Part shown: positions 3,101-64,000 of the stretch, piece after piece | Position numbering within the stretch: position 1 is the stretch's first letter | Layout: each line of letters opens with the position of its first letter | Assembly (NCBI GenBank): GCA_964492765.1 | Contig: CAZBLB010000001.1 | Location: forward strand, 1,736-65,735 | Length of the DNA stretch: 64,000 nt | Reading direction: 5' to 3' | From: an uncultured Candidatus Saccharibacteria bacterium | Lineage (GTDB): Bacteria > Patescibacteriota > Saccharimonadia > Saccharimonadales > Saccharimonadaceae | Notes under the pieces: model-generated | Told to the model about the DNA's origin: nothing | Databases searched by the model: none | The model's input: only the letters and a program-made list of their open reading frames with translations | Made by a program: the position numbers and the translations under genes

Positions 3101-3128
3101 CCTCGACCCTGTTCGACGCTATCCCATA

Positions 3129-3157
3129 TTGACTTTTTTACTAGCTTATGCTATAAT
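3129..3157 (+). promoter_or_regulatory. sigma70-type promoter
   Basis: TTGACT-17 bp-TATAAT; AGGAGG RBS before ATG 3203. Confidence 0.8.
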
Positions 3158-3202
3158 AAGAGAGTTAGGCTTTGCCTACGCATCTTAAAAGGAGGTCGGT
3201 TT

Positions 3203-3703
3203 ATGAAACTGTACCAAGTCTATCTGCCAGACGGCTCCGAAAAACTCCGCGCCGAGCGCGAAGAAAACGAAATTGTTATCATCGAATCCGACACGTTCGC
3301 GGGTGTCGAGGAGCTCCTGGATAAGGGTCTCCACGTCCCCGACGCCGCCAAGCCTTTTCTGAACAACCTGCTCTCCGGAACCTCTCCCCAGGTTCTCGAA
3401 AGCGTCACGATTACCGACAACGCCCTCGTCGTCGAAGCGAGCTGTTCGCATGCGACTAAGCATCGCGGGAACATCTTGAGGAAGTATGAACACGTCCTCG
3501 GATATCTCGAAACGGCCACAGCTCAGGTCATTCGCGTCAGCGCGCTCAAAAACGATATTCCGCACCAGGAAATCGTCGCCATCATCGGCGACGAAGAAAT
3601 CCTCATCTACGACTTCACAACGAAACAGAGCGGTTTAGACGAAGACAGCACGTATTACATCTCGCGCCACCACCCCGTCGAGTTCATCGACGAAGAGGCC
3701 TGA
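3203..3703 (+). CDS. hypothetical acidic protein (166 aa)
   Basis: ORF with promoter, RBS and terminator; TGA stop; weaker C-skew than neighbours. Confidence 0.8.
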   Translation: MKLYQVYLPDGSEKLRAEREENEIVIIESDTFAGVEELLDKGLHVPDAAKPFLNNLLSGTSPQVLESVTITDNALVVEASCSHATKHRGNILRKYEHVLGYLETATAQVIRVSALKNDIPHQEIVAIIGDEEILIYDFTTKQSGLDEDSTYYISRHHPVEFIDEEA

Positions 3704-3778
3704 ACCTGTCCTCGCCCCACGAGCGCCCGCTTAGGCCTAAGCGTCCGTCCTCACCGTCGCCCCGCCTCCGACCCCTCC

Positions 3779-3806
3779 GCCCTGCCACACGGCAGGGCTT
3801 TTTCTT
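3779..3806 (+). terminator. Rho-independent terminator
   Basis: GCCCTGCC-ACAC-GGCAGGGC-TTTTTCTT. Confidence 0.85.
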
Positions 3807-3902
3807 ACCCAAACGCCCGCCTACCACCAACCGCCTCTCTCCACTCGCCCCAACCACCCCCTCCACTCCTCCAACCGTTCTATCTCCCACCCTCCTCGCT
3901 AT

Positions 3903-4136: not shown

Positions 4137-5420
4137 CTACGGCAATATCTTCTCCTCAAACCACCTCTTTATCCGCTCAAACAACGTCTCCTCATTCCTC
4201 GGCATCTCCACCCCCTCCTCCGGCTCCGCCACCGCCGGCTCATCACCTTTCTCTGCCGTCTCATAACTCGGGCTAATCTGCTCTGCCGTCACGAGCAACC
4301 TATACCTACTCGTCCCTAGCGGCCAACACGTCACCAGCGTCAATATCGGCTTATCCGTCTCGTAAACCAACTTCGACACCTCCGACGGCTCAATCACCTC
4401 ATTTTTCACCATCTTATACGTATATCTCGTCTCGTTATAATGCACATAAATAATATCTCCCGCCTCAAGCCTCTCCAGTCCCGAAAAAATAAACTTATAC
4501 TGATTGTTCGAATAAATATCCCCCGCCGAATGTCCCGTAATCACAAAGTTTCCTATCTCGCCCGGAAACGCACTCGCCCCAGAAATGCGATAGTGCACCA
4601 CTCCTTGATTCATCGCTTTCATCACCCCATCAAGCCCCACCCCAAACTCAATCGGCACGTCCACGTTTAGCTTCGGAATAATCAACTTATTTTCCGCCGA
4701 CACCTTCGTCAGCGTCACCGTCGGATCAAGCGGAGAAATTTCCTCCGGCAACTGCTCCCCAGGCGACACGTACGCCATAATCGGTGCAAAAATCAACCTG
4801 TTATACTGCAAAAAGAGAATCGTTAGCATCACCGCCACCCCCGCAAAAATCGGCGTCAGCCACCTCCTTCTCGACCACCTCTTTTTTTCCTCTGCTCTTG
4901 CCCTTATTCTCGCCTTAAAACTTCGCTCTTCGCTCGCCTCTTTTTCCGCCGCCCCCGACATCACCGCCCCTTTTATTCCTCCATCATGCACGTCGCTCGG
5001 TTTCGCACTCCCCTCTGCCTGCGCCCGAATATTTTTTACCTGTTCTTTCGCAACATATTCCTTCGCCGCGTTCATATAATATTCACTATAATATTTCTGA
5101 TAATAATCCTGCCAAGCTGTATGATACTTCTTCCATTCCTCATTAGAAACCTGCCGAATTACCGGCGTCGAACTCACCCCCAAAACCCCTCGCGACCTCT
5201 GTAAATCCGTATTTTTGAGCGCGGAGCGATTTTCCGACATTTTTCCCGCCACCCCCTCAGATTTCTGCTCCTCTTTTTCCTGTTTCTTAATAAAATCCGC
5301 CGCTACCTCTACCTCTTTTTTCTCATACGCAAGCAAAACCTTCCGCCGCGCAATCTCGGCGGCGGTCTGTCTCTGACGTTCCTCAGGAGATAACCCACCG
5401 TTTTTAGAATCCATATACAT
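4137..5420 (-). CDS. sortase family protein with long N-terminal region and one TM anchor
   Basis: LIIPKLNVDVPI, NFVITGHSAG (His), TLVTCWPLGTSRYRLLV (TLxTC and Arg). Confidence 0.92.
   Translation of the reverse strand: MYMDSKNGGLSPEERQRQTAAEIARRKVLLAYEKKEVEVAADFIKKQEKEEQKSEGVAGKMSENRSALKNTDLQRSRGVLGVSSTPVIRQVSNEEWKKYHTAWQDYYQKYYSEYYMNAAKEYVAKEQVKNIRAQAEGSAKPSDVHDGGIKGAVMSGAAEKEASEERSFKARIRARAEEKKRWSRRRWLTPIFAGVAVMLTILFLQYNRLIFAPIMAYVSPGEQLPEEISPLDPTVTLTKVSAENKLIIPKLNVDVPIEFGVGLDGVMKAMNQGVVHYRISGASAFPGEIGNFVITGHSAGDIYSNNQYKFIFSGLERLEAGDIIYVHYNETRYTYKMVKNEVIEPSEVSKLVYETDKPILTLVTCWPLGTSRYRLLVTAEQISPSYETAEKGDEPAVAEPEEGVEMPRNEETLFERIKRWFEEKILP
5213..5239 (+). repeat. dispersed motif TTTTGAGCGCGGA-N7-TCCGAMA, copy 1 (in sortase, antisense)
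   Basis: TTTTGAGCGCGGA-GCGATTT-TCCGACA. Confidence 0.9.
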
Positions 5421-8221: not shown

Positions 8222-9724
8222 ATGACAACATTAGCCGATTATAGAAACGAACGCTTGCGCAAACTTGAAGAAATCAAGTCTTTAGGCATAGACCCCTACC
8301 CTCCAAAGTCCCACCGCACCCATAAAATCGCCGACATCACCGAAAAATACAGCGAGCTAGAAGAAAAAACCGTTTCTATCACCGGCCGTCTCGTCGCCAT
8401 CCGCTCCTTCGGCAAGCTTGCCTTCCTTAAACTCCGCGACCTCTCCGGCGAGGTTCAAGTTTTCATGACCGCCGCCGATTTATCCCCCAACGCTTCCACT
8501 CTTTTCAACACCAAACGCCTCCGCCTCCTCGACACCGGAGATTTTGTCGAAGCCACCGGTCGCGTCGGCAAGTCCTCCACCGGCGAGATTTCCGTTTTCT
8601 GCAACGCCGTCCGCCTTCTTGGAAAGTCTCTCCGTCCGCTCCCCGGCCGCGACGGCTTCACCAACAAAGAAGAACGCTATCGTCGTCGCTATGTTGACAT
8701 GAACGTCAATCCCGAAGTTCGCGACCGTCTCGTCCGTCGCAGTCGCTTCTGGCAAGCCACTCGCGAGTTTATGCTTTCGCACGGTTTTGTCGAGGTCAAC
8801 ATCCCCGTCCTCGAGCACACCACCGGTGGTGCCGACGCTAATCCTTTCATTACCCACATGGACGCCCTCGACGAAGATTTTTACCTCCGCATCTCTCATG
8901 AGCTACCCCTAAAGCGCCTTCTTGGTGGTGGCTTCGAAAAAGTCTTTGACATCGGCCCTCGTTTCCGCAACGAAGGCATCGACGACGAGCACCTCCCCGA
9001 GCACATCGCTTTCGAGGCCTACTCCGCCTACGAAGATTACGAAGATGGCATGACCTTCTACGAAGAAATGATTAAATACGTCGCTAAGAAAACCTGGGGC
9101 ACGCTCAAATTCAACGTCTCCGGCTTCGATATCAATCTCGACCAACCTTGGCCTCGCATAAAATACGCTGACCTCCTCAAAGAAAAATACAACGTCGACG
9201 TCTTTAATCCCGACCGCGAACAGCTTAAATCCATCCTTCGCGAAGATTTTACTCGCTCTGAAGATAGCCACGACCCTGCCGCGAAAAAATCCCTTGAGCA
9301 CACTCTAGAGACCGTTTCAACACCCCACCTCATCGACCACGTCTGGAAACTCATCCGCAAAACCTCTGCCGGCCCGTTCTGGCTCGTCGAAGAGCCTCTC
9401 GAGCTTTCGCCTCTCGCCAAAGTCAGTCCCGAAAACCCCAAAGTCACCCAACGTTTTCACCCGATTATCGCCGGTACCGAAATGGGCAACGGTTTCTCTG
9501 AGCTTAACGACCCTCTCGACCAGCTCGCTCGTTTCAAAGAGCAACAAGCCGCTCGCGACGCTGGCGACTCTGAGGCTCAAATGCTCGACATGGACTTTGT
9601 CGAAATGCTCGAATACGGCATGCCTCCCGCCTGTGGCTGGGGCAACAGCGAACGCAACTTCTGGCTTCTCGAAGGCGTCTCCGGCCGCGAGGCCGTCCCC
9701 TTCCCGATAATAAAACAAAGATAG
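8222..9724 (+). CDS. lysS: lysyl-tRNA synthetase (class II)
   Basis: RSFGKLAF, RYRRRYVDM, GGADANPF, YLRISHELPLKRL, FRNEG, GNGFSELNDPLDQ, EYGMPPACG. Confidence 0.99.
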   Translation: MTTLADYRNERLRKLEEIKSLGIDPYPPKSHRTHKIADITEKYSELEEKTVSITGRLVAIRSFGKLAFLKLRDLSGEVQVFMTAADLSPNASTLFNTKRLRLLDTGDFVEATGRVGKSSTGEISVFCNAVRLLGKSLRPLPGRDGFTNKEERYRRRYVDMNVNPEVRDRLVRRSRFWQATREFMLSHGFVEVNIPVLEHTTGGADANPFITHMDALDEDFYLRISHELPLKRLLGGGFEKVFDIGPRFRNEGIDDEHLPEHIAFEAYSAYEDYEDGMTFYEEMIKYVAKKTWGTLKFNVSGFDINLDQPWPRIKYADLLKEKYNVDVFNPDREQLKSILREDFTRSEDSHDPAAKKSLEHTLETVSTPHLIDHVWKLIRKTSAGPFWLVEEPLELSPLAKVSPENPKVTQRFHPIIAGTEMGNGFSELNDPLDQLARFKEQQAARDAGDSEAQMLDMDFVEMLEYGMPPACGWGNSERNFWLLEGVSGREAVPFPIIKQR

Positions 9725-9744: not shown

Positions 9745-10046
9745 AAAGAGCAAAAATAGCTTTTAGGATTATAAAGAATTTTTACAATGAACTATTTTTA
9801 ACCACTCGGTTTGTTTTTGATTTTTATGGCGTCTAAAGAAATACTCACCGAGATAGTCGAAAAAATCCACGGATGAGCGAAATCGATGGCCGGTGTTTCC
9901 CGAAGCGCATTTCGCGAATCCGACTGGAGTTTTGAGACTATCCCGGATGAGTGTTTCCCAAGCCAGAAAAATGCAAAAACAAACCAGATGGCCAAAAATA
10001 ATTCTTGCCTAAAAATTCCCAATCCTAAAAACTATTTTTGCTCTTT
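9745..10046. repeat. 302-nt rod-like imperfect palindrome (element A)
   Basis: 9745-9770 pairs with 10021-10046 (25/26); successive arms pair inward to a tip near 9886-9905; core shared with 21287-21458. Confidence 0.88.
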
Positions 10047-10079
10047 TTCGCACAATACGCTTATGCTATAATATTATAT

Positions 10080-10997
10080 ATGTCTAACAAAGTCATGGTT
10101 ATCGGCACAGGCAACGTCGGCGCTTCCATTGCCTTTTCTCTTATAAACCAACGCACCGCCGTCAACGAACTCGTCCTCGTCGATATTAACGTCGATGACG
10201 CCGAAGGCGAAGCTATGGATCTTCGCGACGCTCTCGCTGTCGCCCCTAGCTACCTTAAAATAAAATCCGGCTCATATAAAGACGCGCGCAGTTGCGATAT
10301 TATTATCATCACCGCCGGCGCCAACCAAAAACCCGGCGAAACTCGCCTTGACTTACTCAAGAAAAACTCCTCTATCTTCCGCCCCATGGTCAAAGAAATC
10401 ATGGCCTGTGGTTTTCGCGGCATCTTTCTCGTCATCACTAACCCCATGGACGTCATGACTTATCTCACCTGGAAATATTCCGGCCTCCCCTCCGACCACG
10501 TCATCGGCAGCGGCACCGTCCTCGACTCTGCTCGTCTCCGCCTCAAGATTTCCGAAAAACTTTCTATCCACCCAAAGTCCATCCACGCCTACCAAATTGC
10601 CGAACACGGCGACACCGAGTTTGCTCTCTGGTCTTCCGCCGACGTCGCCGGCCAGCCTTTAACCACTCTGCTCTCCGAAATCTCCCTCATGGAGATAGAA
10701 GATTTTGCCCGCAACGAGGCCTACGAAATCATCGCCAAAAAAGGCGCCACTCACTATGGCATCGGCGTCTGCACCACCCACATCATCCACTCCATCTTAA
10801 ACGACGAACGTCGCGTCATGCCTATCTCCTCCTACGACGACATTAATGATGTCTATACCGGTTTCCCGACCGTCCTCGGTCGTCGTGGTGCCATCAAACG
10901 CCTCGATATTAAAATGTCCGAGTCCGAAGCCATAAAATACCAAAAGTCCGTCAACACCCTAAAAAGCGCCATCAAATCTCTCCACGTCCGCGCCTAG
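10080..10997 (+). CDS. ldh: L-lactate dehydrogenase
   Basis: GTGNVG Rossmann motif, TAGANQKPGETRLDL (Gln at the specificity position), DSAR, EHGD, KKGATHYGIG; ATG 10080 lies 7 nt after TATAAT. Confidence 0.95.
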   Translation: MSNKVMVIGTGNVGASIAFSLINQRTAVNELVLVDINVDDAEGEAMDLRDALAVAPSYLKIKSGSYKDARSCDIIIITAGANQKPGETRLDLLKKNSSIFRPMVKEIMACGFRGIFLVITNPMDVMTYLTWKYSGLPSDHVIGSGTVLDSARLRLKISEKLSIHPKSIHAYQIAEHGDTEFALWSSADVAGQPLTTLLSEISLMEIEDFARNEAYEIIAKKGATHYGIGVCTTHIIHSILNDERRVMPISSYDDINDVYTGFPTVLGRRGAIKRLDIKMSESEAIKYQKSVNTLKSAIKSLHVRA

Positions 10998-11006
10998 CCC
11001 TGACAG

Positions 11007-11040
<34 letters not shown>

Positions 11041-11077
11041 CCTAGTTTTTGACCCATAAAAATGCTATACTAAAATC

Positions 11078-12988: not shown

Positions 12989-13036
12989 TCGCCCCTAGCC
13001 CTAGAAAAGTTCTATAAAATATGAGATAATATCACC

Positions 13037-14287
13037 ATGTTAGACATCAACTTCATCCGAGAAAATCAATCGGCCGTCGAGCGCGCCGTCCGCGAAAAAC
13101 GCTACAAAATCTCTATTAAAGACCTTCTCTCCGTCGACGATTCTCGTCGTGAACTCTTAAAAAACGTCGAGTCTCTCCGACAAAAAAAGAACGAAATTGC
13201 CACCCAAATAAAAACCACCAAGAAAAAGCCTGACGCTTCGCTCATCGAGGCCGGGAAAAAGGTCAAAGAAGAACTCTTTGTCCTAGAAAAATCTCTCAGC
13301 GAAAAAGAAGCCGAGCTTAAAACCGCTCTCAAATCCGTTCCTAACGTTATCTTTGACGACGTTCCGCTTGGCGGGGAAGAATGTTCCGTCGAAATTAAAT
13401 CTTGGGGCGAAAAAAAGTCCTCTGGCGTCGACCATCTCGACTACGCTACTTCTCGCGACTGGGTTGACTTTGACCGTGGCGCCAAAGTCGCCGGCAGCAA
13501 GTTTTATTATCTAAAAGGCGATCTTGCCCTCCTAGAAAACGCTCTTATCCAATACGGTCTCAAAAAAGTCACCGAAGCCGGCTTTACTTTCATGACCGTC
13601 CCCGACCTCGTCTCCTCCAAAGTTCTCGAAGGTTGCGGGTTTAATCCACGCACCTCCGACCAGTCCGACGAATATTTTGTCGAAGGCGAAGACCTTGCGC
13701 TCATCGCCACCGCCGAAATGCCTCTCACCGGTTATCACATGGACGAAATCCTCGAAGAAAAAGACCTTCCACTTCTCTATGCCGGCCTTTCCGCCTGCTT
13801 CCGCAAAGAAGCTGGCACCTACGGCAAGCACACTCGCGGTCTTTTCCGTGTTCACCAGTTTAACAAACTCGAGATGTACGCCTTCTGCCTCCCCGAACAG
13901 TCCAAGGACCTCCACGAAAAAATCCTTTCCGTCGAAGAAGACATCTGGCAAACCTTAGGTATTCCTTATCGAATTATCAACATCGCCGCTGGCGACCTCG
14001 GCGCTCCTGCCGCCAAAAAATACGACATCGAATATTGGTCTCCTGCTGACCAAACTTATCGCGAGCTTACTTCTTGCTCCAACTGTACCGATTTCCAAGC
14101 TCGTTCGCTCAACATCCGTGTCCGCAAGAAAAACGGCGAACTTGTTGTCGCCCACACCTTAAATGGCACCGCTATCTCTCTTGCTCGCACCATGGTTGCC
14201 GTCATCGAAAATTACGCTCAAAAAGACGGCAAACTCATTATCCCCGAAGTTCTTCGACCCTATCTAAACAACAAGAAGGAGCTATAA
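13037..14287 (+). CDS. serS: seryl-tRNA synthetase
   Basis: MLDINFIREN, LIATAEMPL, CFRKEAG, RGLFRVHQF, SCSNCTDFQAR, HTLNGT. Confidence 0.99.
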   Translation: MLDINFIRENQSAVERAVREKRYKISIKDLLSVDDSRRELLKNVESLRQKKNEIATQIKTTKKKPDASLIEAGKKVKEELFVLEKSLSEKEAELKTALKSVPNVIFDDVPLGGEECSVEIKSWGEKKSSGVDHLDYATSRDWVDFDRGAKVAGSKFYYLKGDLALLENALIQYGLKKVTEAGFTFMTVPDLVSSKVLEGCGFNPRTSDQSDEYFVEGEDLALIATAEMPLTGYHMDEILEEKDLPLLYAGLSACFRKEAGTYGKHTRGLFRVHQFNKLEMYAFCLPEQSKDLHEKILSVEEDIWQTLGIPYRIINIAAGDLGAPAAKKYDIEYWSPADQTYRELTSCSNCTDFQARSLNIRVRKKNGELVVAHTLNGTAISLARTMVAVIENYAQKDGKLIIPEVLRPYLNNKKEL

Positions 14288-20213: not shown

Positions 20214-21293
20214 ATGGACTCGCTCAAAAAACAACTCGCCGCTCTCCAAAACGACCTCGACCAAAGCTGGGCGCGCCTTTCTCTCGACGAAAAACTTAAA
20301 AAACTTGACTCTCTAGAAAAAGAAATCGCCCTTCCTGAACTCTGGACTAATCCCGACCGCGCCAAAGCCAAAAACGCCGAGTTTTCTCACCTAAACGACG
20401 AGGTCGCCCCGTGGTCTCTCTTAAAGTCTCAAGTCTCCGACCTCTCCGAGCTTATCGACCTCGGCGGGGAAGAGCTCAAGGATGAAATCTCCGCCCAACT
20501 TTCCGCCATGTCCACCTCTCTCGAAAACCTCAAAAAATCCCTCCGTTTCACCGGCGAGTTCGACCAAAACAACGCCATCTTGCGTATTACCGCCGGCGTA
20601 GGCGGCACCGAAGCTATGGATTGGGCGTCCATGCTCGAGCGCATGTATCTCCGCTTTTTCGAGCAAAACGGCTTCCGCGCCACTCTCGTCGAACGCGTCG
20701 AAGGCGAAGAAGCCGGCATTAAAACCGCCGTCTACGAGATAACCGGTACGAACACCTACGGCACTCTAAAATCCGAGCATGGCGTTCACCGTCTCGTTCG
20801 GCTGTCTCCCTTTAACGCCGACAATCTCCGCCAAACTTCCTTCGCTCTCGTCGAAATCCTCCCCGTTTTGACGGACGACTCCGAAATAAAAATCGACGAC
20901 AAAGACCTCCGTATTGACGTCTATCATTCTGGCGGTCATGGCGGCCAATCCGTCAACACCACCAACTCCGCCGTCCGTATCACCCACCTCCCGACCAACA
21001 CCGTCGTCGCCATCCAAAACGAACGTTCCCAACTTCAAAACAAAGAAAAAGCCCTCGAAATCTTACGTGGCAAGCTCGCTCAAATGAAACTCGAACAAAA
21101 AGCCGAATCTATCGACAAACTTCGCGCCGGCGAGTCCGCCAAATGGGGTCAACAAATCCGCAACTACGTCCTGCAACCTTATAAATTAGTCAAAGACACT
21201 AGGACCAAGTTTGAAAGCGCTGAAGTAGAGAAGGTATTAAACGGCGACATTTCAGACTTCATAGACGCATACTTAGAATCAAGAACAGCTTAG
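20214..21293 (+). CDS. prfB: peptide chain release factor 2, no programmed frameshift
   Basis: GVHRLVRLSPF (SPF), GGHGGQ, ERSQLQNK, IRNYVLQPY. Confidence 0.97.
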   Translation: MDSLKKQLAALQNDLDQSWARLSLDEKLKKLDSLEKEIALPELWTNPDRAKAKNAEFSHLNDEVAPWSLLKSQVSDLSELIDLGGEELKDEISAQLSAMSTSLENLKKSLRFTGEFDQNNAILRITAGVGGTEAMDWASMLERMYLRFFEQNGFRATLVERVEGEEAGIKTAVYEITGTNTYGTLKSEHGVHRLVRLSPFNADNLRQTSFALVEILPVLTDDSEIKIDDKDLRIDVYHSGGHGGQSVNTTNSAVRITHLPTNTVVAIQNERSQLQNKEKALEILRGKLAQMKLEQKAESIDKLRAGESAKWGQQIRNYVLQPYKLVKDTRTKFESAEVEKVLNGDISDFIDAYLESRTA

Positions 21294-21458
21294 ATTGGCT
21301 TAGACTAACTTTGCTTATATAAAAATTTTTACAATGAATTATTTTTGGTTTAGTCGTTTCGAGCACGCGTCCCATCCGCGCCGCAGAAACAGATTAAACC
21401 AAAAATAATTCTTGACTAAAAATTCCATAAGCGAAGCTAGTCTAAACCAATCTAAGCT
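21287..21458. repeat. 172-nt rod-like imperfect palindrome (element B)
   Basis: 21287-21318 pairs with 21427-21458 (3 differences in 32); GAATTATTTTTGGTTTA/TAAACCAAAAATAATTC is perfect; core shared with element A. Confidence 0.9.
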
Positions 21459-21507
21459 AATCTAAGCTAATGTTGCATATTGGTTGAGTTTATACTATTA
21501 TAGAAAC

Positions 21508-22275
21508 ATGATATTGCTCGACCGCGTCACGAAAATTTATCCGGGCGACAAACGCCCTGCCCTTGACGACGTGTCGCTTCATATCGCTCCGAACGAATTT
21601 GTCTTTCTTGTTGGAAAATCCGGCGCCGGAAAGTCCACCCTCATGAAAATGATTACCAAAGAAGAAACCCCCGACTTCGGTAAAATCATCATCGGCGGCA
21701 TCGACCTCGACTACGTCAAATATCGCCACATTCCTCATTATCGCCGTCGTCTCGGCGTCGTCTTTCAAGATTTTAAACTTCTCCCTCGTCGCACCGTCTA
21801 CGAAAACGTCGCTTTCGCCCTCGAAATCGCCGGCATGTCTGGTCGCGACATCCGCCACACCGTTCCAAAAGTCCTCGACCTCGTCGGTCTCACCGACCAA
21901 GCCGACAAATTCCCCTCTCAGCTCTCCGGTGGTCAACAACAGCGCGTTTCTATCGCTCGCTCCGTCGCCCGCCAGCCTAAAATCCTCATCGCCGATGAGC
22001 CGACCGGAAACCTAGATAAACTCACCCGCACCGAAATCATCTCTCTCCTTCAAAAAATCAACGACTTCGGCACCACCGTCCTCGTCACAACGCACGACGA
22101 GACCATAGTCAATAACCTCGGCAAGCGCGTCGTCACCTTAAAAAACGGTCGCATAGTCGCCGACCAAAAAACCAACGGCGTCTATCGTCTCGACGGCGAA
22201 CCCGAAGTCTTAATAGATAATTCCCCCAAAGCCCCCGGGCACAAAAACCAACCCAGAGGAAGAAAAGCACGATGA
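21508..22275 (+). CDS. ftsE: cell division ATP-binding protein FtsE
   Basis: GKSGAGKST, VVFQDFKLL, LSGGQQQRV, ADEPTGNLD; ATG 21508 preferred over the upstream TTG. Confidence 0.96.
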   Translation: MILLDRVTKIYPGDKRPALDDVSLHIAPNEFVFLVGKSGAGKSTLMKMITKEETPDFGKIIIGGIDLDYVKYRHIPHYRRRLGVVFQDFKLLPRRTVYENVAFALEIAGMSGRDIRHTVPKVLDLVGLTDQADKFPSQLSGGQQQRVSIARSVARQPKILIADEPTGNLDKLTRTEIISLLQKINDFGTTVLVTTHDETIVNNLGKRVVTLKNGRIVADQKTNGVYRLDGEPEVLIDNSPKAPGHKNQPRGRKAR

Positions 22276-31139: not shown

Positions 31140-31158
31140 TCCCCTCTAAGGTGATATA

Positions 31159-31178
31159 ATATATATATATATATATAT
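31159..31178. repeat. (AT)10 microsatellite
   Basis: Run starting in the TGATATAAT -10 box upstream of pheS. Confidence 0.9.
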
Positions 31179-31212
31179 TAATACGCTTATTTTAAATAAT
31201 AAAATATCTTAT

Positions 31213-57909: not shown

Positions 57910-58611
57910 ATGGACACTACCCCCTATCAAACTTTCGCCGAAGAAAAACTCGGCTTCAAATTTAATGACATCAACTTGCTCATTACTGCCCTCACCCACC
58001 GCAGTTACGTCAACGAGCATAAAAAATCCGCCACCGCCCACAACGAGCGTCTCGAATTTCTCGGCGATGCCGTTCTCGAACTCGTTTCCTCCGACTTCCT
58101 CTTTCGTAACTACGACGAGCCCGAAGGTGTCATGACCTCCCTTCGCGCCGCCCTCGTCCGCACCGAGTCCATCGGTGCCGCCGGCGAAGAACTCGGCTAC
58201 GCACCCCTCGTCCGCCTCTCTCGTGGCGAAAAACACGGCACCGACCGCGCCCACGCCGTCATCCTCGCTGACTGTTTCGAGGCCGTCATCGGCGCCATTT
58301 ATCTCGACAAAGGCTACGAAGAAGCCAAAAAGTTCATAGAAAAGCATATTCTGACCAAAATTGACGACATTCTCGATTCCGGCTCTTGGCGCGACCCCAA
58401 GTCCTACTTCCAAGAACTCGCCCAAAAAGCCGACGGAGAAACCCCAGCCTACCACACCATCAAAGAAGAAGGGCCCGACCACGACAAAACCTTCACTGTC
58501 GGCGTTTATGTCGGCAAGTCTATCAAAGGTGTAGGCGTCGGTCACAGCAAACAAGAAGCCCAAACCGCCGCCGCAAAAGAGGGAATCAAAGCCTACAAGC
58601 TCGGAAAATAA
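57910..58611 (+). CDS. rnc: ribonuclease III
   Basis: HNERLEFLGDAVL, ADCFEAVIGAIYLD, dsRBD DPKSYFQE. Confidence 0.99.
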   Translation: MDTTPYQTFAEEKLGFKFNDINLLITALTHRSYVNEHKKSATAHNERLEFLGDAVLELVSSDFLFRNYDEPEGVMTSLRAALVRTESIGAAGEELGYAPLVRLSRGEKHGTDRAHAVILADCFEAVIGAIYLDKGYEEAKKFIEKHILTKIDDILDSGSWRDPKSYFQELAQKADGETPAYHTIKEEGPDHDKTFTVGVYVGKSIKGVGVGHSKQEAQTAAAKEGIKAYKLGK

Positions 58612-61327: not shown

Positions 61328-64000
61328 GTGAACTCCACCAAATCTACTGGTCGCGTTTTCTTCACTGAAGGCGACCAAGCTCTTCCTATCCCTGACCTTA
61401 TCTCTCACCAAAAGGACAGCTGGGAAGATTTTGTCAAGTCCGGTCTCCGCGAGGTTTTTAACGAGCTTAATCCTATCGAGGACTACACTCACCAAAAACT
61501 CGCGCTCCGCTTTAAAGATTATTACTTTAAAGAGCCGTCCGAATCCGAACGCGACGCCAAATACAACTTAACAACTTATGACGCGCCTCTCCACGTCATC
61601 GTCGAGCTAGAAAACAAGGTCACCGGCGTCAAAAAAGAGCAAGACATCTTCTTTGGCGACTACCCCTGGATGACCGACCGTGCAACTTTCATCATTAACG
61701 GCACCGAACGTGTTATCGTCTCCCAGCTCATTCGCTCCGCCGGTGTCTTTTTCACCGCCGACCACATCGGCGAGAAAAACTACTACGGCGCCAAGGTCAT
61801 CCCTGGCCGCGGTGCTTGGCTCGAATTCGAGACCGCCACTTCCGGCGCTATCTACGTCAAAATTGACCGCCGCCGCAAAGTCCCCGTCACGACTCTTCTT
61901 CGCGCCCTCGGCATCTCCAAAAACTCCGAAATCAAAGAAAAGTTCGCCGGTCTCGACGAAGGTGTTTTCTCTTACATCGACGCCACGCTCGAAAAAGATA
62001 CCACTCGTGGCCAGTCCGAAGCTTTGATTGAGGTTTACCGCCGTCTTCGCCCTGGCGACCTTGCGACCGTCGAAAACGCCAAAGATATGATTGAGCGCAC
62101 TTTCTTCGACTACAAGCGCTACGATTATTCCCGCGTTGGTCGTTTCAAAATTAACCAGAGGCTCGGTTTCGACACTCCAAACGACAGCGAACACCGCACT
62201 CTTCAGATGCAAGACCTCCTCGCGATTATCGCCGAAATCATCCGCCTCAATAACACTCAAGACCCCGCCGACGACATCGACTCTCTCGCCAACCGCCGCA
62301 TCAAACTCGTTGGCGAGCTCGTCCAGCGCCAGTTCCGCCTCGGCATGCTCCGTCTCCAGAGAAACATTCTCGACCGCATGTCCATGGCCAACCTCGACGA
62401 TGTCACTCCATCCCAGCTCCTAAACTCCCGCCCGGTCGTCGCCGCCGTCAAAGAGTTCTTCGCCTCCTCCCAGCTCTCTCAGCTGATGGACGAAACCAAC
62501 CCCTTCGCCGAGCTTTCCCACAAACGCCGTCTAAGCTCCATGGGGCCCGGTGGCCTCACCCGCGAACGCGCCGGTTTCGATGTCCGTGACGCCCACCCGA
62601 CTCACTACGGTCGTATCTGCACCGTCGAAACTCCAGAAGGTGGCAACGTCGGTCTCGTGCTTAACCTCGCTACTTACGCCCGCATCAACGACTACGGCTT
62701 CATCGAAGCCCCTTATCGCGTCGTTAAAGACGGCAAGGTCACGAACGAAATCGTCTACGTTGATGCTTCCGCCGAAGACGACATGATTATCGCCGACGCC
62801 TCGGTCAAGCTCGACAAAAACGGCAAATTCATCGACACTTTCGTCTCCGCTCGTGTTCACGGCACACCAGCCCAGGTCGAGTCTTCTCGTGTCACCCACG
62901 TCGACGCCGCCCACAAAGAAATCTTAGGCGTCAGCGCCTCCCTTATTCCTTTCGTAGAAAAGAACCGTGTTGACCGCTCCCTCATGGCCTGCGCCATGCA
63001 GAAACAAGCCGTTCCTCTCTTAAAGACCGACGCACCTGTCGTCGGCACCGGTATCGAAGGCGAAGTCGCCAAAAACCTTTCTCAGGTCATCTTTGCCGAA
63101 GGCGACGGCGAAGTCAAAAAAGCCGACGGCATCTCTATTATCGTCAAATACGCCGACAAGTCCGAAAAAGAATACAAACTCACCCACTTCGAGAAAAACA
63201 ACGACGACCGCTGTTATAATATGCGCACTCGCGTCGTCCGCGGTCAAAAAGTCAAAAAAGGCGACATTCTCATCGAAGGTGCTTCCGTCGAAAACGGCGA
63301 GCTCGCCCTCGGAAAAGACCTTCTCGTTGCGTTCATGCCTTGGCGTGGCTACAACATGGATGACGCCATCGTCATCTCCTCCCGCCTCGTCGAAGACGAT
63401 GAACTTACATCTATTAACATCAAAGACTACGACGTCGAAGTTCGTGAAACCAAGCTCGGTCCCGAACAAATCACTCGCGACATCCCAAACGTTTCCGAAC
63501 ATTCTCTCCGCCACCTCGGCGAAGACGGCATCGTAGCCGTTGGCTCCGAAGTTTCCACCGGCGACATCCTCGTCGGCAAGATTACCCCGAAAGGCGAACA
63601 AGAGCTCTCTAGCGAAGAGCGCCTTCTCCGCGCCATCTTCGGCGAAAAAGCCAAAGACGTCCGCGACACCTCCGTCCGCATGAACGGCGGCACCGGCAAA
63701 GTCATCGGCGTCCGCATCTACACCCGCGAACAAGGCCACGACCTCAAAGCTGGCGTCCTCATGCAAATCAAAATCTACGTCGCCGAAATGCGCAAAATCG
63801 ACGTCGGCGATAAGCTCGCCGGTCGCCACGGCAACAAAGGCGTCGTCTCTCGTATCCTTCCGGTCGAAGACATGCCGTTTATGGCCGACGGCACCCCGAT
63901 TGACATTCTTCTTTCCCCAATGGGTGTGCCTTCCCGTATGAACCTCGGCCAGCTCTTCGAGACCCACCTCGGCATGGCGGCTCGCGCTCTCGGCTACAAA
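61328..64000 (+). CDS. rpoB: RNA polymerase beta subunit (runs off window end)
   Basis: GTG 61328 after AAAAGGA; INGTERVIVSQL, HKRRLSSMGPGGLTRE, YGRICTVETPEG, GDKLAGRHGNKG, GVPSRMNLGQ; open to base 64000, so absent from the ORF track. Confidence 0.99.
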   Translation, partial: MNSTKSTGRVFFTEGDQALPIPDLISHQKDSWEDFVKSGLREVFNELNPIEDYTHQKLALRFKDYYFKEPSESERDAKYNLTTYDAPLHVIVELENKVTGVKKEQDIFFGDYPWMTDRATFIINGTERVIVSQLIRSAGVFFTADHIGEKNYYGAKVIPGRGAWLEFETATSGAIYVKIDRRRKVPVTTLLRALGISKNSEIKEKFAGLDEGVFSYIDATLEKDTTRGQSEALIEVYRRLRPGDLATVENAKDMIERTFFDYKRYDYSRVGRFKINQRLGFDTPNDSEHRTLQMQDLLAIIAEIIRLNNTQDPADDIDSLANRRIKLVGELVQRQFRLGMLRLQRNILDRMSMANLDDVTPSQLLNSRPVVAAVKEFFASSQLSQLMDETNPFAELSHKRRLSSMGPGGLTRERAGFDVRDAHPTHYGRICTVETPEGGNVGLVLNLATYARINDYGFIEAPYRVVKDGKVTNEIVYVDASAEDDMIIADASVKLDKNGKFIDTFVSARVHGTPAQVESSRVTHVDAAHKEILGVSASLIPFVEKNRVDRSLMACAMQKQAVPLLKTDAPVVGTGIEGEVAKNLSQVIFAEGDGEVKKADGISIIVKYADKSEKEYKLTHFEKNNDDRCYNMRTRVVRGQKVKKGDILIEGASVENGELALGKDLLVAFMPWRGYNMDDAIVISSRLVEDDELTSINIKDYDVEVRETKLGPEQITRDIPNVSEHSLRHLGEDGIVAVGSEVSTGDILVGKITPKGEQELSSEERLLRAIFGEKAKDVRDTSVRMNGGTGKVIGVRIYTREQGHDLKAGVLMQIKIYVAEMRKIDVGDKLAGRHGNKGVVSRILPVEDMPFMADGTPIDILLSPMGVPSRMNLGQLFETHLGMAARALGYK

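What the first reader, a model, noticed from the sequence alone, without database searches (positions are those of the whole stretch)
9745..10046. 302-nt rod-like palindrome between lysS and ldh (element A)
Seen: the whole element folds back as one long bulged hairpin. Pairings are 9745-9770/10021-10046 (25/26), 9776-9799/9994-10018, 9808-9830/9962-9985, 9838-9858/9936-9957, 9866-9874/9918-9928 and 9877-9883/9909-9915, with a tip near 9886-9905. It starts 20 nt after the lysS stop and ends just before the ldh -10 box, and is far longer than a terminator. Established: long stem-loop repeats (ERIC, Correia, YPAL) can be RNase III substrates that alter mRNA stability. Inference: a new palindromic element family or structured RNA.
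Basis: partly seen in the sequence, partly recalled or inferred. Interest (0 to 1): 0.7.

Follow-up and report, generated by a model that had tools for sequence, protein, structure and literature searches.

The report
Nested palindromic repeat element after lysS
The 302-base hairpin is real and belongs to an undescribed family of nested palindromic repeat elements in ruminant-gut Saccharibacteria; it sits in the gap after a gene and is most likely selfish DNA that also serves as a transcript-end hairpin.

Summary
Window 9745-10046 folds into one bulged rod of 119 pairs (RNA -126.5 kcal/mol, z -13.7). Seven independent assemblies contain it unchanged, so it is not an artefact. No Rfam family matches.

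It is not one unit but a composite. Its outer arms and a 24-nt "core platform" belong to a family whose second window copy lies at 21282-21463, between prfB and ftsE. Eight more copies occur in three other Saccharibacteria MAGs. Its inner part (9838-9957) belongs to a second hairpin family that shares a 29-nt tip.

Relatives have 63-64 nt lysS-ldh spacers, one holding a plain GC terminator. A strain with about 98% identical flanks carries a 102-nt short allele.

Across copies the apical modules are 92-97% identical although synonymous sites are near saturation (about 59% identity). The basal arms differ between loci yet always pair: 20 of 28 pairs show changes on both sides.

Best reading (0.6): a non-autonomous, self-nesting palindromic repeat of the MITE/REPIN/ERIC kind, sitting between a stop codon and the next promoter. 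There it probably acts as a terminator or 3'-end hairpin, and possibly as an RNase III substrate. That function is inferred, not shown. It is a new family of a known kind.

The parts
9745..10046 (+). Element A: whole 302-nt imperfect palindrome (composite)
   Evidence: Folds. Identical in 5 assemblies. Spanned by Logan contigs with 0 differences.
9745..9770 (+). Left outer arm (pairs with 10021-10046)
   Evidence: 26 nt, 96% complementary. A similar arm, AGAACAAAAATAATAACTTTTTGGATTAT, flanks another copy in metagenome contigs.
10021..10046 (+). Right outer arm, running into a T-run (GCTCTTTTT) that overlaps the -35 position of the ldh promoter
9777..9799 (+). Left core AATTTTTACAATGAACTATTTTT (diverged complement of the right core)
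   Evidence: Only 2 matches in the window at up to 3 mismatches; 0.01 expected.
9994..10017 (+). Right core AAAAATAATTCTTGCCTAAAAATT, the most widely shared motif of the family
   Evidence: 2 matches in the window, 0 expected. 8 hits in 3 Saccharibacteria MAGs.
9800..9837 (+). Connecting stems (pair with 9958-9993); no copy found elsewhere so far
   Evidence: for the helices; for the BLAST, which found no other copy.
9838..9957 (+). Inner 'C-type' hairpin nested at the apex
   Evidence: Aligns with L022:2545-2668, L013:1672-1815(-) and L028:2180-2290.
9882..9910 (+). 29-nt conserved tip ATCGATGGCCGGTGTTTCCCGAAGCGCAT
   Evidence: Exact IUPAC pattern matches in L013, L022, L024 and L028, and in A and its copies. 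Also present in RNA-seq and DNA contigs with other stems.
9722..9724 (+). lysS stop codon, 20 nt upstream of the element
10064..10072 (+). ldh extended -10 (TGCTATAAT); ATG at 10080, so the mRNA looks leaderless
   Evidence: Sequence. Gene call 10080-10997 taken from L001.
21282..21463 (+). Element B: second family member, between prfB and ftsE; its left arm holds the prfB stop (21291-21293)
   Evidence: RNA fold -83.3 kcal/mol, z -15.3.
21318..21429 (+). B apical module (core platform plus GC-rich tip), 95-97% identical to copies in other species
57910..58611 (+). RNase III gene (possible trans-acting nuclease; link untested)
   Evidence: Pfam Ribonucleas_3_3 at 9e-40, plus a dsrm domain.

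Best explanation
Element A is a composite, non-coding palindromic repeat of the same general kind as MITE, REPIN, ERIC or Correia elements. It belongs to families confined, as far as I could see, to a clade of ruminant-gut Candidatus Saccharibacteria.

It has three layers:
1. Outer arms plus a 24-nt core platform, shared with element B and at least 8 copies elsewhere.
2. Connecting stems seen nowhere else so far.
3. A second hairpin family ('C-type') nested at the apex, with a 29-nt conserved tip.

Each layer is also found on its own in other spacers. New material therefore appears at the apex of an existing hairpin, and the elements decay by deletions between short AAAAAT repeats.

Shown: the element was gained at the place where relatives carry a plain terminator or nothing. 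It is polymorphic within the species. It lies between the lysS stop codon and the -35-independent ldh promoter.

Inferred: it is transcribed as the 3' end of the lysS message. The rod followed by TTTTT ends or insulates transcription and shields the 3' end. The long duplex is a plausible substrate for the RNase III the genome encodes. How copies spread is unknown, because no transposase partner was found.
For: 1. Repeat family. The right core is exact in A and B (0 expected by chance) and in 8 sites in three other Saccharibacteria MAGs. Further copies appear in gut metagenome contigs.

2. Composite build. The tip and inner stems of A match hairpins that lack the core, in L022, L028 and L013.

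3. Gain and loss at orthologous sites.
- lysS-ldh: the spacer is 63-64 nt in L019 (with AAAGCCCCTTCGGGGGCTTTTT) and in L020.
- prfB-ftsE: empty in L028, a bare stem in L027, the core only in L022/L011, the full module in L026 and the window.
- DUF2207-serS: empty in 5 species, filled in L022 and L028.

4. Polymorphism within the species. A goat-gut contig with about 98% identical flanks joins 9784 to 10015 through 30 other bases, giving a 102-nt allele. A metatranscriptome contig shows the same junction.

5. Conservation pattern. B modules are 95-97% identical across species. The prfB and ftsE third codon positions are only 59-60% identical between the window and L026.

6. Exchange between copies. 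Two tip subtypes do not follow locus orthology: L008 and L010 differ at the same locus.

7. Paired arms. The outer helix keeps pairing despite different sequences: 20 of 28 pairs changed on both sides, 88% of cells paired, 0/500 shuffles reach this.

8. Position. In 13 elements the upstream stop codon lies between -23 and +12 of the element start. 6 of 9 loci end in a T-run.

9. Specificity of long palindromes. Across 16 non-redundant sources scanned, 7 of the 14 palindromes scoring 17 or more belong to these families. The window has only A and B.
Against: - No clear target-site duplication. The AAAAAT flanks of the inner module could equally be part of the element.
- No autonomous copy. All 8 Saccharibacteria genome hits are short, and nothing turned up in viral contigs.
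- Unlike classic MITEs, the termini vary and the centre is conserved.
- Copy number is low: 2 per 64 kb here, 2-4 exact cores per MAG.
- Conservation of the apical modules far above neutral sites could mean function rather than recent spread.
- Two outer stems include complements of native flanking sequence (L022: GGGGTTGGTAA / TTACAACCCC). Simple insertion does not explain that.
- Termination is unproven. The prfB-locus and C-type copies lack a T-run, the consensus terminator scan finds nothing, and the RNA data are low-depth unstranded contigs.
Confidence: 0.6

Rival explanations
1. It is a cis-acting structured RNA in the 3' UTR. The conserved apical modules (the B module and the 29-nt C tip) are the functional parts, for example protein- or RNA-binding loops. 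The long stems are an interchangeable scaffold kept by selection for pairing.
For: - Apical modules are 92-97% identical although synonymous sites are near saturation.
- Outer stems show 20 pairs changed on both sides.
- One compensatory U-A/C-G switch and one invariant G.U lie inside the module on the + strand.
- The orientation is the same at every locus.
- Hairpin contigs occur in RNA-seq assemblies at depths similar to lysS.
Against: - The module is dispensable at the prfB locus, where L022 and L027 have lost it. At lysS-ldh it is replaced in the short allele, which holds only an inverted core and lacks A's inner module.
- The 39 inner pairs never vary, so they say nothing about structure.
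- Wobble pairs are rare. Mismatches follow the genomic skew: 46 A.C against 17 G.T.
- Orthologous copies are no more alike than paralogous ones, and tip subtypes swap between loci.
- There is no Rfam relative.
Confidence: 0.22
2. It works at the DNA level. The palindrome extrudes as a hairpin or cruciform on one replication strand and serves as a site for a recombinase, a HUH/Y1 nuclease or a replication protein. The arms are kept alike by template switching rather than by selection.
For: - Nearly all arm changes are Watson-Crick on both sides with few wobbles.
- The right core lies on the C-rich strand at every locus, including those between convergent genes.
- The DNA fold has z -15.7.
- Outer pairs copy native flanks.
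- The genome's extreme strand skew points to long-lived single-stranded DNA.
Against: - No associated nuclease or recombinase gene appears in any held locus (gene tables).
- The short allele has the core inverted.
- There is no direct evidence of hairpin extrusion.
Confidence: 0.12
3. It is a protein-coding or small-peptide locus. Gene callers annotated a 61-aa ORF at 9886-10071 inside the element.
For: The ORF was called in 3 metagenome assemblies, L001, L004 and L005.
Against: - No Pfam family matches either in-element ORF.
- The ORF runs through the right arm into the ldh promoter.
- It is absent from the short allele and from relatives.
- The equivalent ORFs in B-type copies are by-products of the palindrome.
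Confidence: 0.02
4. It is an assembly artefact, such as a fold-back chimera.
For: None found.
Against: Five assemblies made with different assemblers and samples are identical. Logan contigs from two more runs span it with 0 differences.
Confidence: 0.01

Closest known systems
ERIC / IRU elements of Enterobacteriaceae and Vibrio (own knowledge)
   Same: Imperfect palindromes of about 127 bp in transcribed intergenic regions. Size variants arise from insertions at internal sites. They fold as long hairpins in mRNA and affect its stability.
   Different: There is no sequence relation and the phylum differs. In ERIC the whole unit is conserved. Here the apex is conserved while the basal arms differ between loci. 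ERIC occurs in both orientations.
Correia (CREE/NEMIS) elements of Neisseria (own knowledge)
   Same: Rod-like hairpins of 100-155 bp next to genes. They are co-transcribed, cut by RNase III, and can act as terminators.
   Different: Correia elements have conserved 26-bp terminal repeats, a TA target duplication and hundreds of copies. None of these is seen here.
REP / REPIN elements with RAYT (Y1/HUH) transposases (PMC3333891 and PMC2817692, found; details from own knowledge)
   Same: Extragenic palindromes after genes. REP doublets form long hairpins. The mechanism acts on single-stranded DNA and is strand-biased. No transposase lies inside the element.
   Different: REPs are 20-40 nt with a GTAG head and occur in hundreds of copies. 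No RAYT gene is seen in the loci I hold. Conservation there lies in the arms, not the tip.
Insertion sequences that target palindromic units, such as IS1397 and ISPpu9/10 (PMC1525189, found)
   Same: Mobile DNA that lands inside an existing extragenic hairpin. This gives element-within-hairpin nesting.
   Different: Those are full insertion sequences carrying transposase genes. Here the nested units are 80-190 nt and non-coding.
Rickettsia palindromic elements, RPE (own knowledge)
   Same: Palindromic repeats in a reduced genome that can enter coding sequence without destroying the gene. Element B supplies the last codons and the stop codon of RF2 (SR[LIT]A*).
   Different: RPEs insert in frame inside genes and are translated. 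Here only the last 3-4 codons are involved.
Intrinsic (Rho-independent) terminators
   Same: Same position, between a stop codon and the next promoter. The stem is followed by a T-run and preceded by an A-run. The orthologous site in L019 holds a textbook terminator.
   Different: The stem has about 120 pairs instead of 5-15 and is AT-rich. Several family members lack a T-run.

Membership tests
Any Rfam family (release 15) | Covariance-model score at or above the family's gathering threshold | tested here: not met
   The whole window gives only a tRNA at gathering scores. The best sub-threshold hits are EF0408_EF0409 at 22 bits against 440 and mir-606 at 32 bits against 80 for element B. Nothing was found for the C-type hairpin.
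MITE (generic) | Short, non-coding, multiple copies at unrelated loci | tested here: met
   Sizes run from 70 to 302 nt, with no Pfam match in the internal ORFs. There are 2 copies in the window, 8 in three MAGs and more in metagenome contigs.
MITE (generic) | Conserved terminal inverted repeats shared by all copies | tested here: not met
   Every copy has inverted termini, but the terminal sequences differ between loci while the centre is conserved.
MITE (generic) | Target-site duplication flanking the element | tested here: inconclusive
   Comparing filled and empty sites gives no clean duplication. AAAAAT flanks the inner module in all copies. A possible CTTGA(A/G) duplication at prfB has diverged.
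MITE (generic) | A related autonomous element with the same ends and a transposase | tested here: not met
   All 8 Saccharibacteria hits to the exact core in 185,579 species genomes are short elements. Viral contigs gave none. Divergent ends would have escaped the exact-match scan.
REP/REPIN-RAYT | 20-40 nt palindrome with a conserved GTAG-type head, in hundreds of copies | tested here: not met
   No such head is present, and there are 2 copies per 64 kb.
REP/REPIN-RAYT | A RAYT (Y1 transposase) gene in the genome flanked by the repeats | not testable with these tools
   Only partial loci of the MAGs could be fetched. No Y1_Tnp family appears in the gene tables.
Correia / NEMIS | 26-bp conserved terminal repeats with a TA duplication | tested here: not met
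   The junction sequences show neither.
Intrinsic terminator | Stable hairpin immediately followed by a U-tract, at a gene's 3' end | tested here: inconclusive
   Element A ends GCTCTTTTT. 6 of 9 loci have a T-run and all lie within 23 nt of a stop codon. The consensus scan finds none because the stem and loop exceed its limits. No 3'-end mapping is available.
RNase III substrate hairpins | Staggered double-strand cleavage of the transcript by RNase III | not testable with these tools
   The RNase III gene is present. The available RNA runs are unstranded low-depth contigs.

The most novel reading that the evidence does not exclude
The elements are a self-nesting class of palindromes that spread by landing at the apex or loop of existing hairpins. 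They would be locked in orientation to one replication strand, in a genome with extreme strand asymmetry. They would be moved by a trans-acting single-strand DNA enzyme or by replication template switching, not by an encoded transposase. They would also be partly domesticated: they replace terminators and supply stop codons and C-termini of essential genes such as RF2. Alternatively, the 29-nt and 108-nt apical modules are ligand-binding RNA or DNA motifs of a new kind.
Probability: 0.25. Interest if true: 0.7.

Novelty: new member of a known kind. Interest (0 to 1): 0.5.

Why it matters
- I found no paper describing repeat elements in Saccharibacteria or other Patescibacteria. Their small genomes are usually thought to be nearly free of mobile DNA.
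- This family shows that such genomes still carry active or recently active selfish palindromes.
- These palindromes occupy the only free space available, between a stop codon and the next leaderless promoter.
- They can replace terminators and rewrite the C-terminus of an essential gene (RF2).
- Their unusual pattern, with a conserved apex and free but paired arms, offers a way to separate RNA-level selection from DNA-level palindrome maintenance.
- For annotators, the spurious 61-aa ORF inside the element should be removed.

Tried and rejected
- **Rfam:** gathering scan of the window plus permissive scans of A, B and a C-type copy. Only sub-threshold generic hairpin hits came back.
- **Viral contigs:** scanned with the core, the C tip and the B tip; 0 hits.
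- **JGI metagenome scan with the core:** only a chance hit in an archaeal AT-rich spacer, the same as L007.
- **Antisense RNA:** the - strand folds 9-20 kcal/mol better. I rejected this as evidence. The excess of A.C over G.T mismatches (46:17) follows the strand-driven skew: third codon positions are 52% C and 9% G in + genes, and the reverse in - genes.
- **Promoter inside the core or arms:** TTGACT has no -10 box at the right spacing. TGAGATAAT occurs in the left arm of only 3 copies (L008, L010, L013). The scans show nothing consistent.
- **'The outer arms are copied from the end of the upstream gene':** at prfB the outgroup shows that the old CDS end (CTTGAACAATAA) now lies to the right of the palindrome. 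The palindrome is therefore inserted and the gene reads into it. L022 does suggest an older small hairpin around the stop codon. This remains unresolved.
- **A sliding local-fold scan (Lfold)** was too noisy to use. I replaced it with a symmetric palindrome scan.
- **Literature searches** for Saccharibacteria with MITE or palindromic elements found nothing relevant.
- **Strand-specific RNA evidence:** only unstranded Logan contigs were available.

Full report

Yes. Window 9745-10046 folds as one bulged rod.
- + strand as RNA: -126.5 kcal/mol, against -57 +/- 5 for dinucleotide shuffles (z -13.7).
- + strand as DNA: -81.6 kcal/mol, z -15.7.
- - strand as RNA: -146.1 kcal/mol, z -15.6.

There are 119 pairs and only one is G.U. 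The lysS stop is at 9722-9724. The ldh extended -10 box TGCTATAAT is at 10064-10072 and the ATG at 10080.

The element is not an artefact. Five assemblies from different samples are identical across the spacer. Logan contigs of 1296 nt and 764 nt from two further runs span it with no differences.

**2. Source genome.**

The window comes from a ruminant-gut Candidatus Saccharibacteria MAG, GCA_017404215.1. The names of the relatives agree. Spacers are 0-80 nt, and A and B sit in two of the few long ones.

**3. It belongs to a family.**

A second palindrome lies at 21282-21463, between prfB and ftsE (RNA fold z -15.3). It shares two motifs with A: a left core AATTTTTACAATGAAYTATTTTT and a right core AAAAATAATTCTTGNCTAAAAATT. 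Each occurs exactly twice in the window, where about 0 is expected.

An exact scan of 185,579 species genomes with the right core gave 9 hits. Eight are in three other Saccharibacteria MAGs and one is a chance hit in an archaeon. Viral contigs and JGI metagenomes gave nothing relevant. No Rfam family reaches threshold for A, B or a C-type copy.

**4. Anatomy of the family.**

Six genome hits plus B (and L026, fetched later) carry a module of about 108 nt. It consists of the core platform and a GC-rich tip with the loop TCCCATC, and the copies are 95-97% identical.
- **Position:** each module sits at the apex of a 25-37 bp stem, and the stem sequence differs from locus to locus.
- **Inner pairs:** in an alignment of seven full copies, the 39 inner pairs never vary.
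- **Outer helix:** 20 of its 28 pairs changed on both sides, and 88% of cells stay paired. That compares with 40-50% when the partners are slid, and 0/500 shuffles reach the observed values.
- **Reduced forms:** L006 and L011/L022 keep only the right core, as a loop of about 29 nt. L027 keeps only the stem.
- **How they arise:** the three states differ by segments bounded by AAAAAT direct repeats. Slippage deletions from the full form are the simplest account.

**5. Element A is a composite.**

Its inner part (9838-9957) matches hairpins that lack the core: L022:2525-2684, L028:2143-2322 and L013. All share a nearly invariant 29-nt tip, ATCGATGGCCGGTG[CT]T[AT]CCCGAAGCGCAT, at window 9882-9910.

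The outer arms of A resemble those of another B-like copy seen in metagenome contigs, AGAACAAAAATAATAACTTTTTGGATTAT.... So A is outer arms plus core platform, enclosing connecting stems, enclosing a C-type hairpin. Each conserved layer also exists on its own elsewhere.

**6. Gain, loss and polymorphism.**

- **lysS-ldh.** L019 (LysS 83% identical) has a 64-nt spacer with a textbook terminator, AAAGCCCCTTCGGGGGCTTTTTCG. L020 has 63 nt and no hairpin. Other relatives carry a Fic gene or 1.4 kb of tandem repeats there.
- **Short allele.** A goat-gut contig whose flanks are about 98% identical to the window joins 9784 to 10015 through GTCAAGAATTATTTTTGCTCTTTCACACAC. This is a 102-nt allele with the core inverted. 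A metatranscriptome contig shows the same junction.
- **prfB-ftsE.** Most Saccharibacteria have a 356-aa RF2 ending ...FLEQ*, and in L028 the ftsE promoter follows directly. A small clade has a 359-aa RF2 ending ...YLESR[LIT]A*. In that clade the old CDS end (CTTGAACGATAA) lies to the right of the palindrome. The whole palindrome is therefore an insertion, and RF2 now reads into its left arm.
- **DUF2207-serS.** Empty (30-51 nt) in five species. Filled in L022 and L028 by hairpins with the same tip and unrelated stems.

**7. Selection or spread?**

Between the window and L026, third codon positions of prfB and ftsE are 59-60% identical. The B module at the same locus is 96% identical, and the outer arms have diverged with compensatory changes.

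Orthologous modules are no more alike than paralogous ones. Two tip subtypes (GTTCC GAGTA...CCGCA GGAAC and GTTTC GAGCA...ACGGA GAAAC) coexist within genomes and differ between the orthologous ppa-locus copies L008 and L010.

This fits exchange between copies, or recent spread among co-resident species. It also fits strong constraint. The module is lost at the prfB locus in L022 and L027, and the short lysS allele lacks A's inner module and has only an inverted core. Both facts argue that it is dispensable locally, whereas the stem persists.

**8. Which strand?**

Mismatches on the + strand are 46 A.C against 17 G.T, which is why the - strand folds better. The genome has an extreme strand-driven skew. 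Third codon positions are 52% C and 9% G in + strand genes, and about 50% G and 8% C in - strand genes. The asymmetry therefore lies in the direction of mutation pressure and says nothing about antisense transcription.

Every genomic copy has its right core on the C-rich strand, including copies between convergent genes. The short allele is the one exception.

**9. How it most likely works.**

- **Shown:** position, structure, family membership, gain and loss.
- **Inferred:** in a genome whose promoters are -35-independent and whose mRNAs look leaderless (TATAAT, 6-7 nt, ATG), the only neutral landing place is between a stop codon and the next -10 box.
- In 13 elements the upstream stop codon lies from -23 to +12 of the element start. 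6 of 9 loci end in a T-run.
- Element A occupies the slot of the L019 terminator and ends GCTCTTTTT. The likely effect is termination or insulation of lysS read-through and protection of the 3' end.
- The RNase III encoded at 57910-58611 could cut the duplex.
- None of this is tested. The RNA data are unstranded low-depth contigs. They show lysS 3' sequence continuous with the left arm, and hairpin contigs at depths similar to mRNA.

**10. Comparison and verdict.**

In behaviour it resembles ERIC, Correia, REPIN and RPE elements, and the nesting resembles insertion sequences that target REP hairpins (PMC1525189, PMC3333891, PMC2817692). It meets none of their defining sequence features:
- no conserved termini;
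- no clear target duplication;
- no GTAG head;
- no autonomous partner or RAYT found.

It is best filed as a new family of palindromic repeats with an unusual architecture: the apex is conserved and new units nest there. Interest is moderate (0.5). I found no prior description of repeat elements in this phylum. The finding affects annotation, because of the spurious 61-aa ORF and the RF2 C-terminus. The mechanism of spread and the function remain open.

Noticed in passing
whole window; measured on 9 + strand genes and 4 - strand genes (e.g. 8222-9724, 4137-5420): There is an extreme strand-driven compositional skew. Third codon positions are 52% C and 9% G in + strand genes, and about 50% G and 6-10% C in - strand genes. 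Window GC skew runs from -0.1 to -0.42 throughout. The strand that carries most genes is the C-rich one, which is the opposite of the usual leading-strand bias.
   Followed up: partly
window 5213, 6198, 33586, 61099 (+); 19697, 46999 (-); near-match at 63237 (-): The 13-mer TTTTGAGCGCGGA has six exact copies, followed by about 6 nt and then TCCGA (a small CGGA/TCCG hairpin). It occurs in both orientations and mostly inside coding regions. 0.39 matches at up to 1 mismatch are expected by chance. It is absent from the loci of related species. It could be an uptake-signal-like or in-gene repeat motif.
   Followed up: partly
window 10064-10082, 21491-21510, 13014-13039: ldh, ftsE and serS have a TGnTATAAT-type -10 box 6-7 nt before the ATG and no Shine-Dalgarno sequence. 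These genes, and probably many others here, look leaderless.
   Followed up: no
window 21282-21293; proteins P0121-P0123, P0127: RF2 in the element-bearing clade is 3 residues longer (...YLESR[LIT]A*) than in other Saccharibacteria (...FLEQ*). Its last codons and stop codon come from the left arm of element B.
   Followed up: yes
L015:11521-13024; L017:11513-12924: The lysS-ldh spacer is a hotspot. One relative carries a Fic-domain gene plus an unknown ORF there. Another carries 1.4 kb of tandem repeats of about 240 bp encoding GYYWS-type motifs.
   Followed up: no
L015:2448-2806, 3101-3457, 3513-3886: Three neighbouring units of about 360 nt are bounded by the inverted repeat GCCTATATAAGGAGCGGG, in a gene-poor stretch. 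This is a different MITE-like element in a related species.
   Followed up: no
L014:3863-4029; L009:4163-4296: These are further long rod-like hairpins with other tips (-91 and -68 kcal/mol). They suggest that more hairpin families exist in this clade.
   Followed up: no
window 11005-11043 and 31149-31194: (TA)n microsatellites of about 26-30 nt lie in two intergenic spacers.
   Followed up: no
window 9886-10071 (+) and 9798-10022 (-): ORFs of 61 and 74 aa lie inside the palindrome. The 61-aa ORF was called as a gene in three of the metagenome assemblies (L001, L004, L005). Neither has a Pfam match, and they are most likely annotation artefacts.
   Followed up: yes
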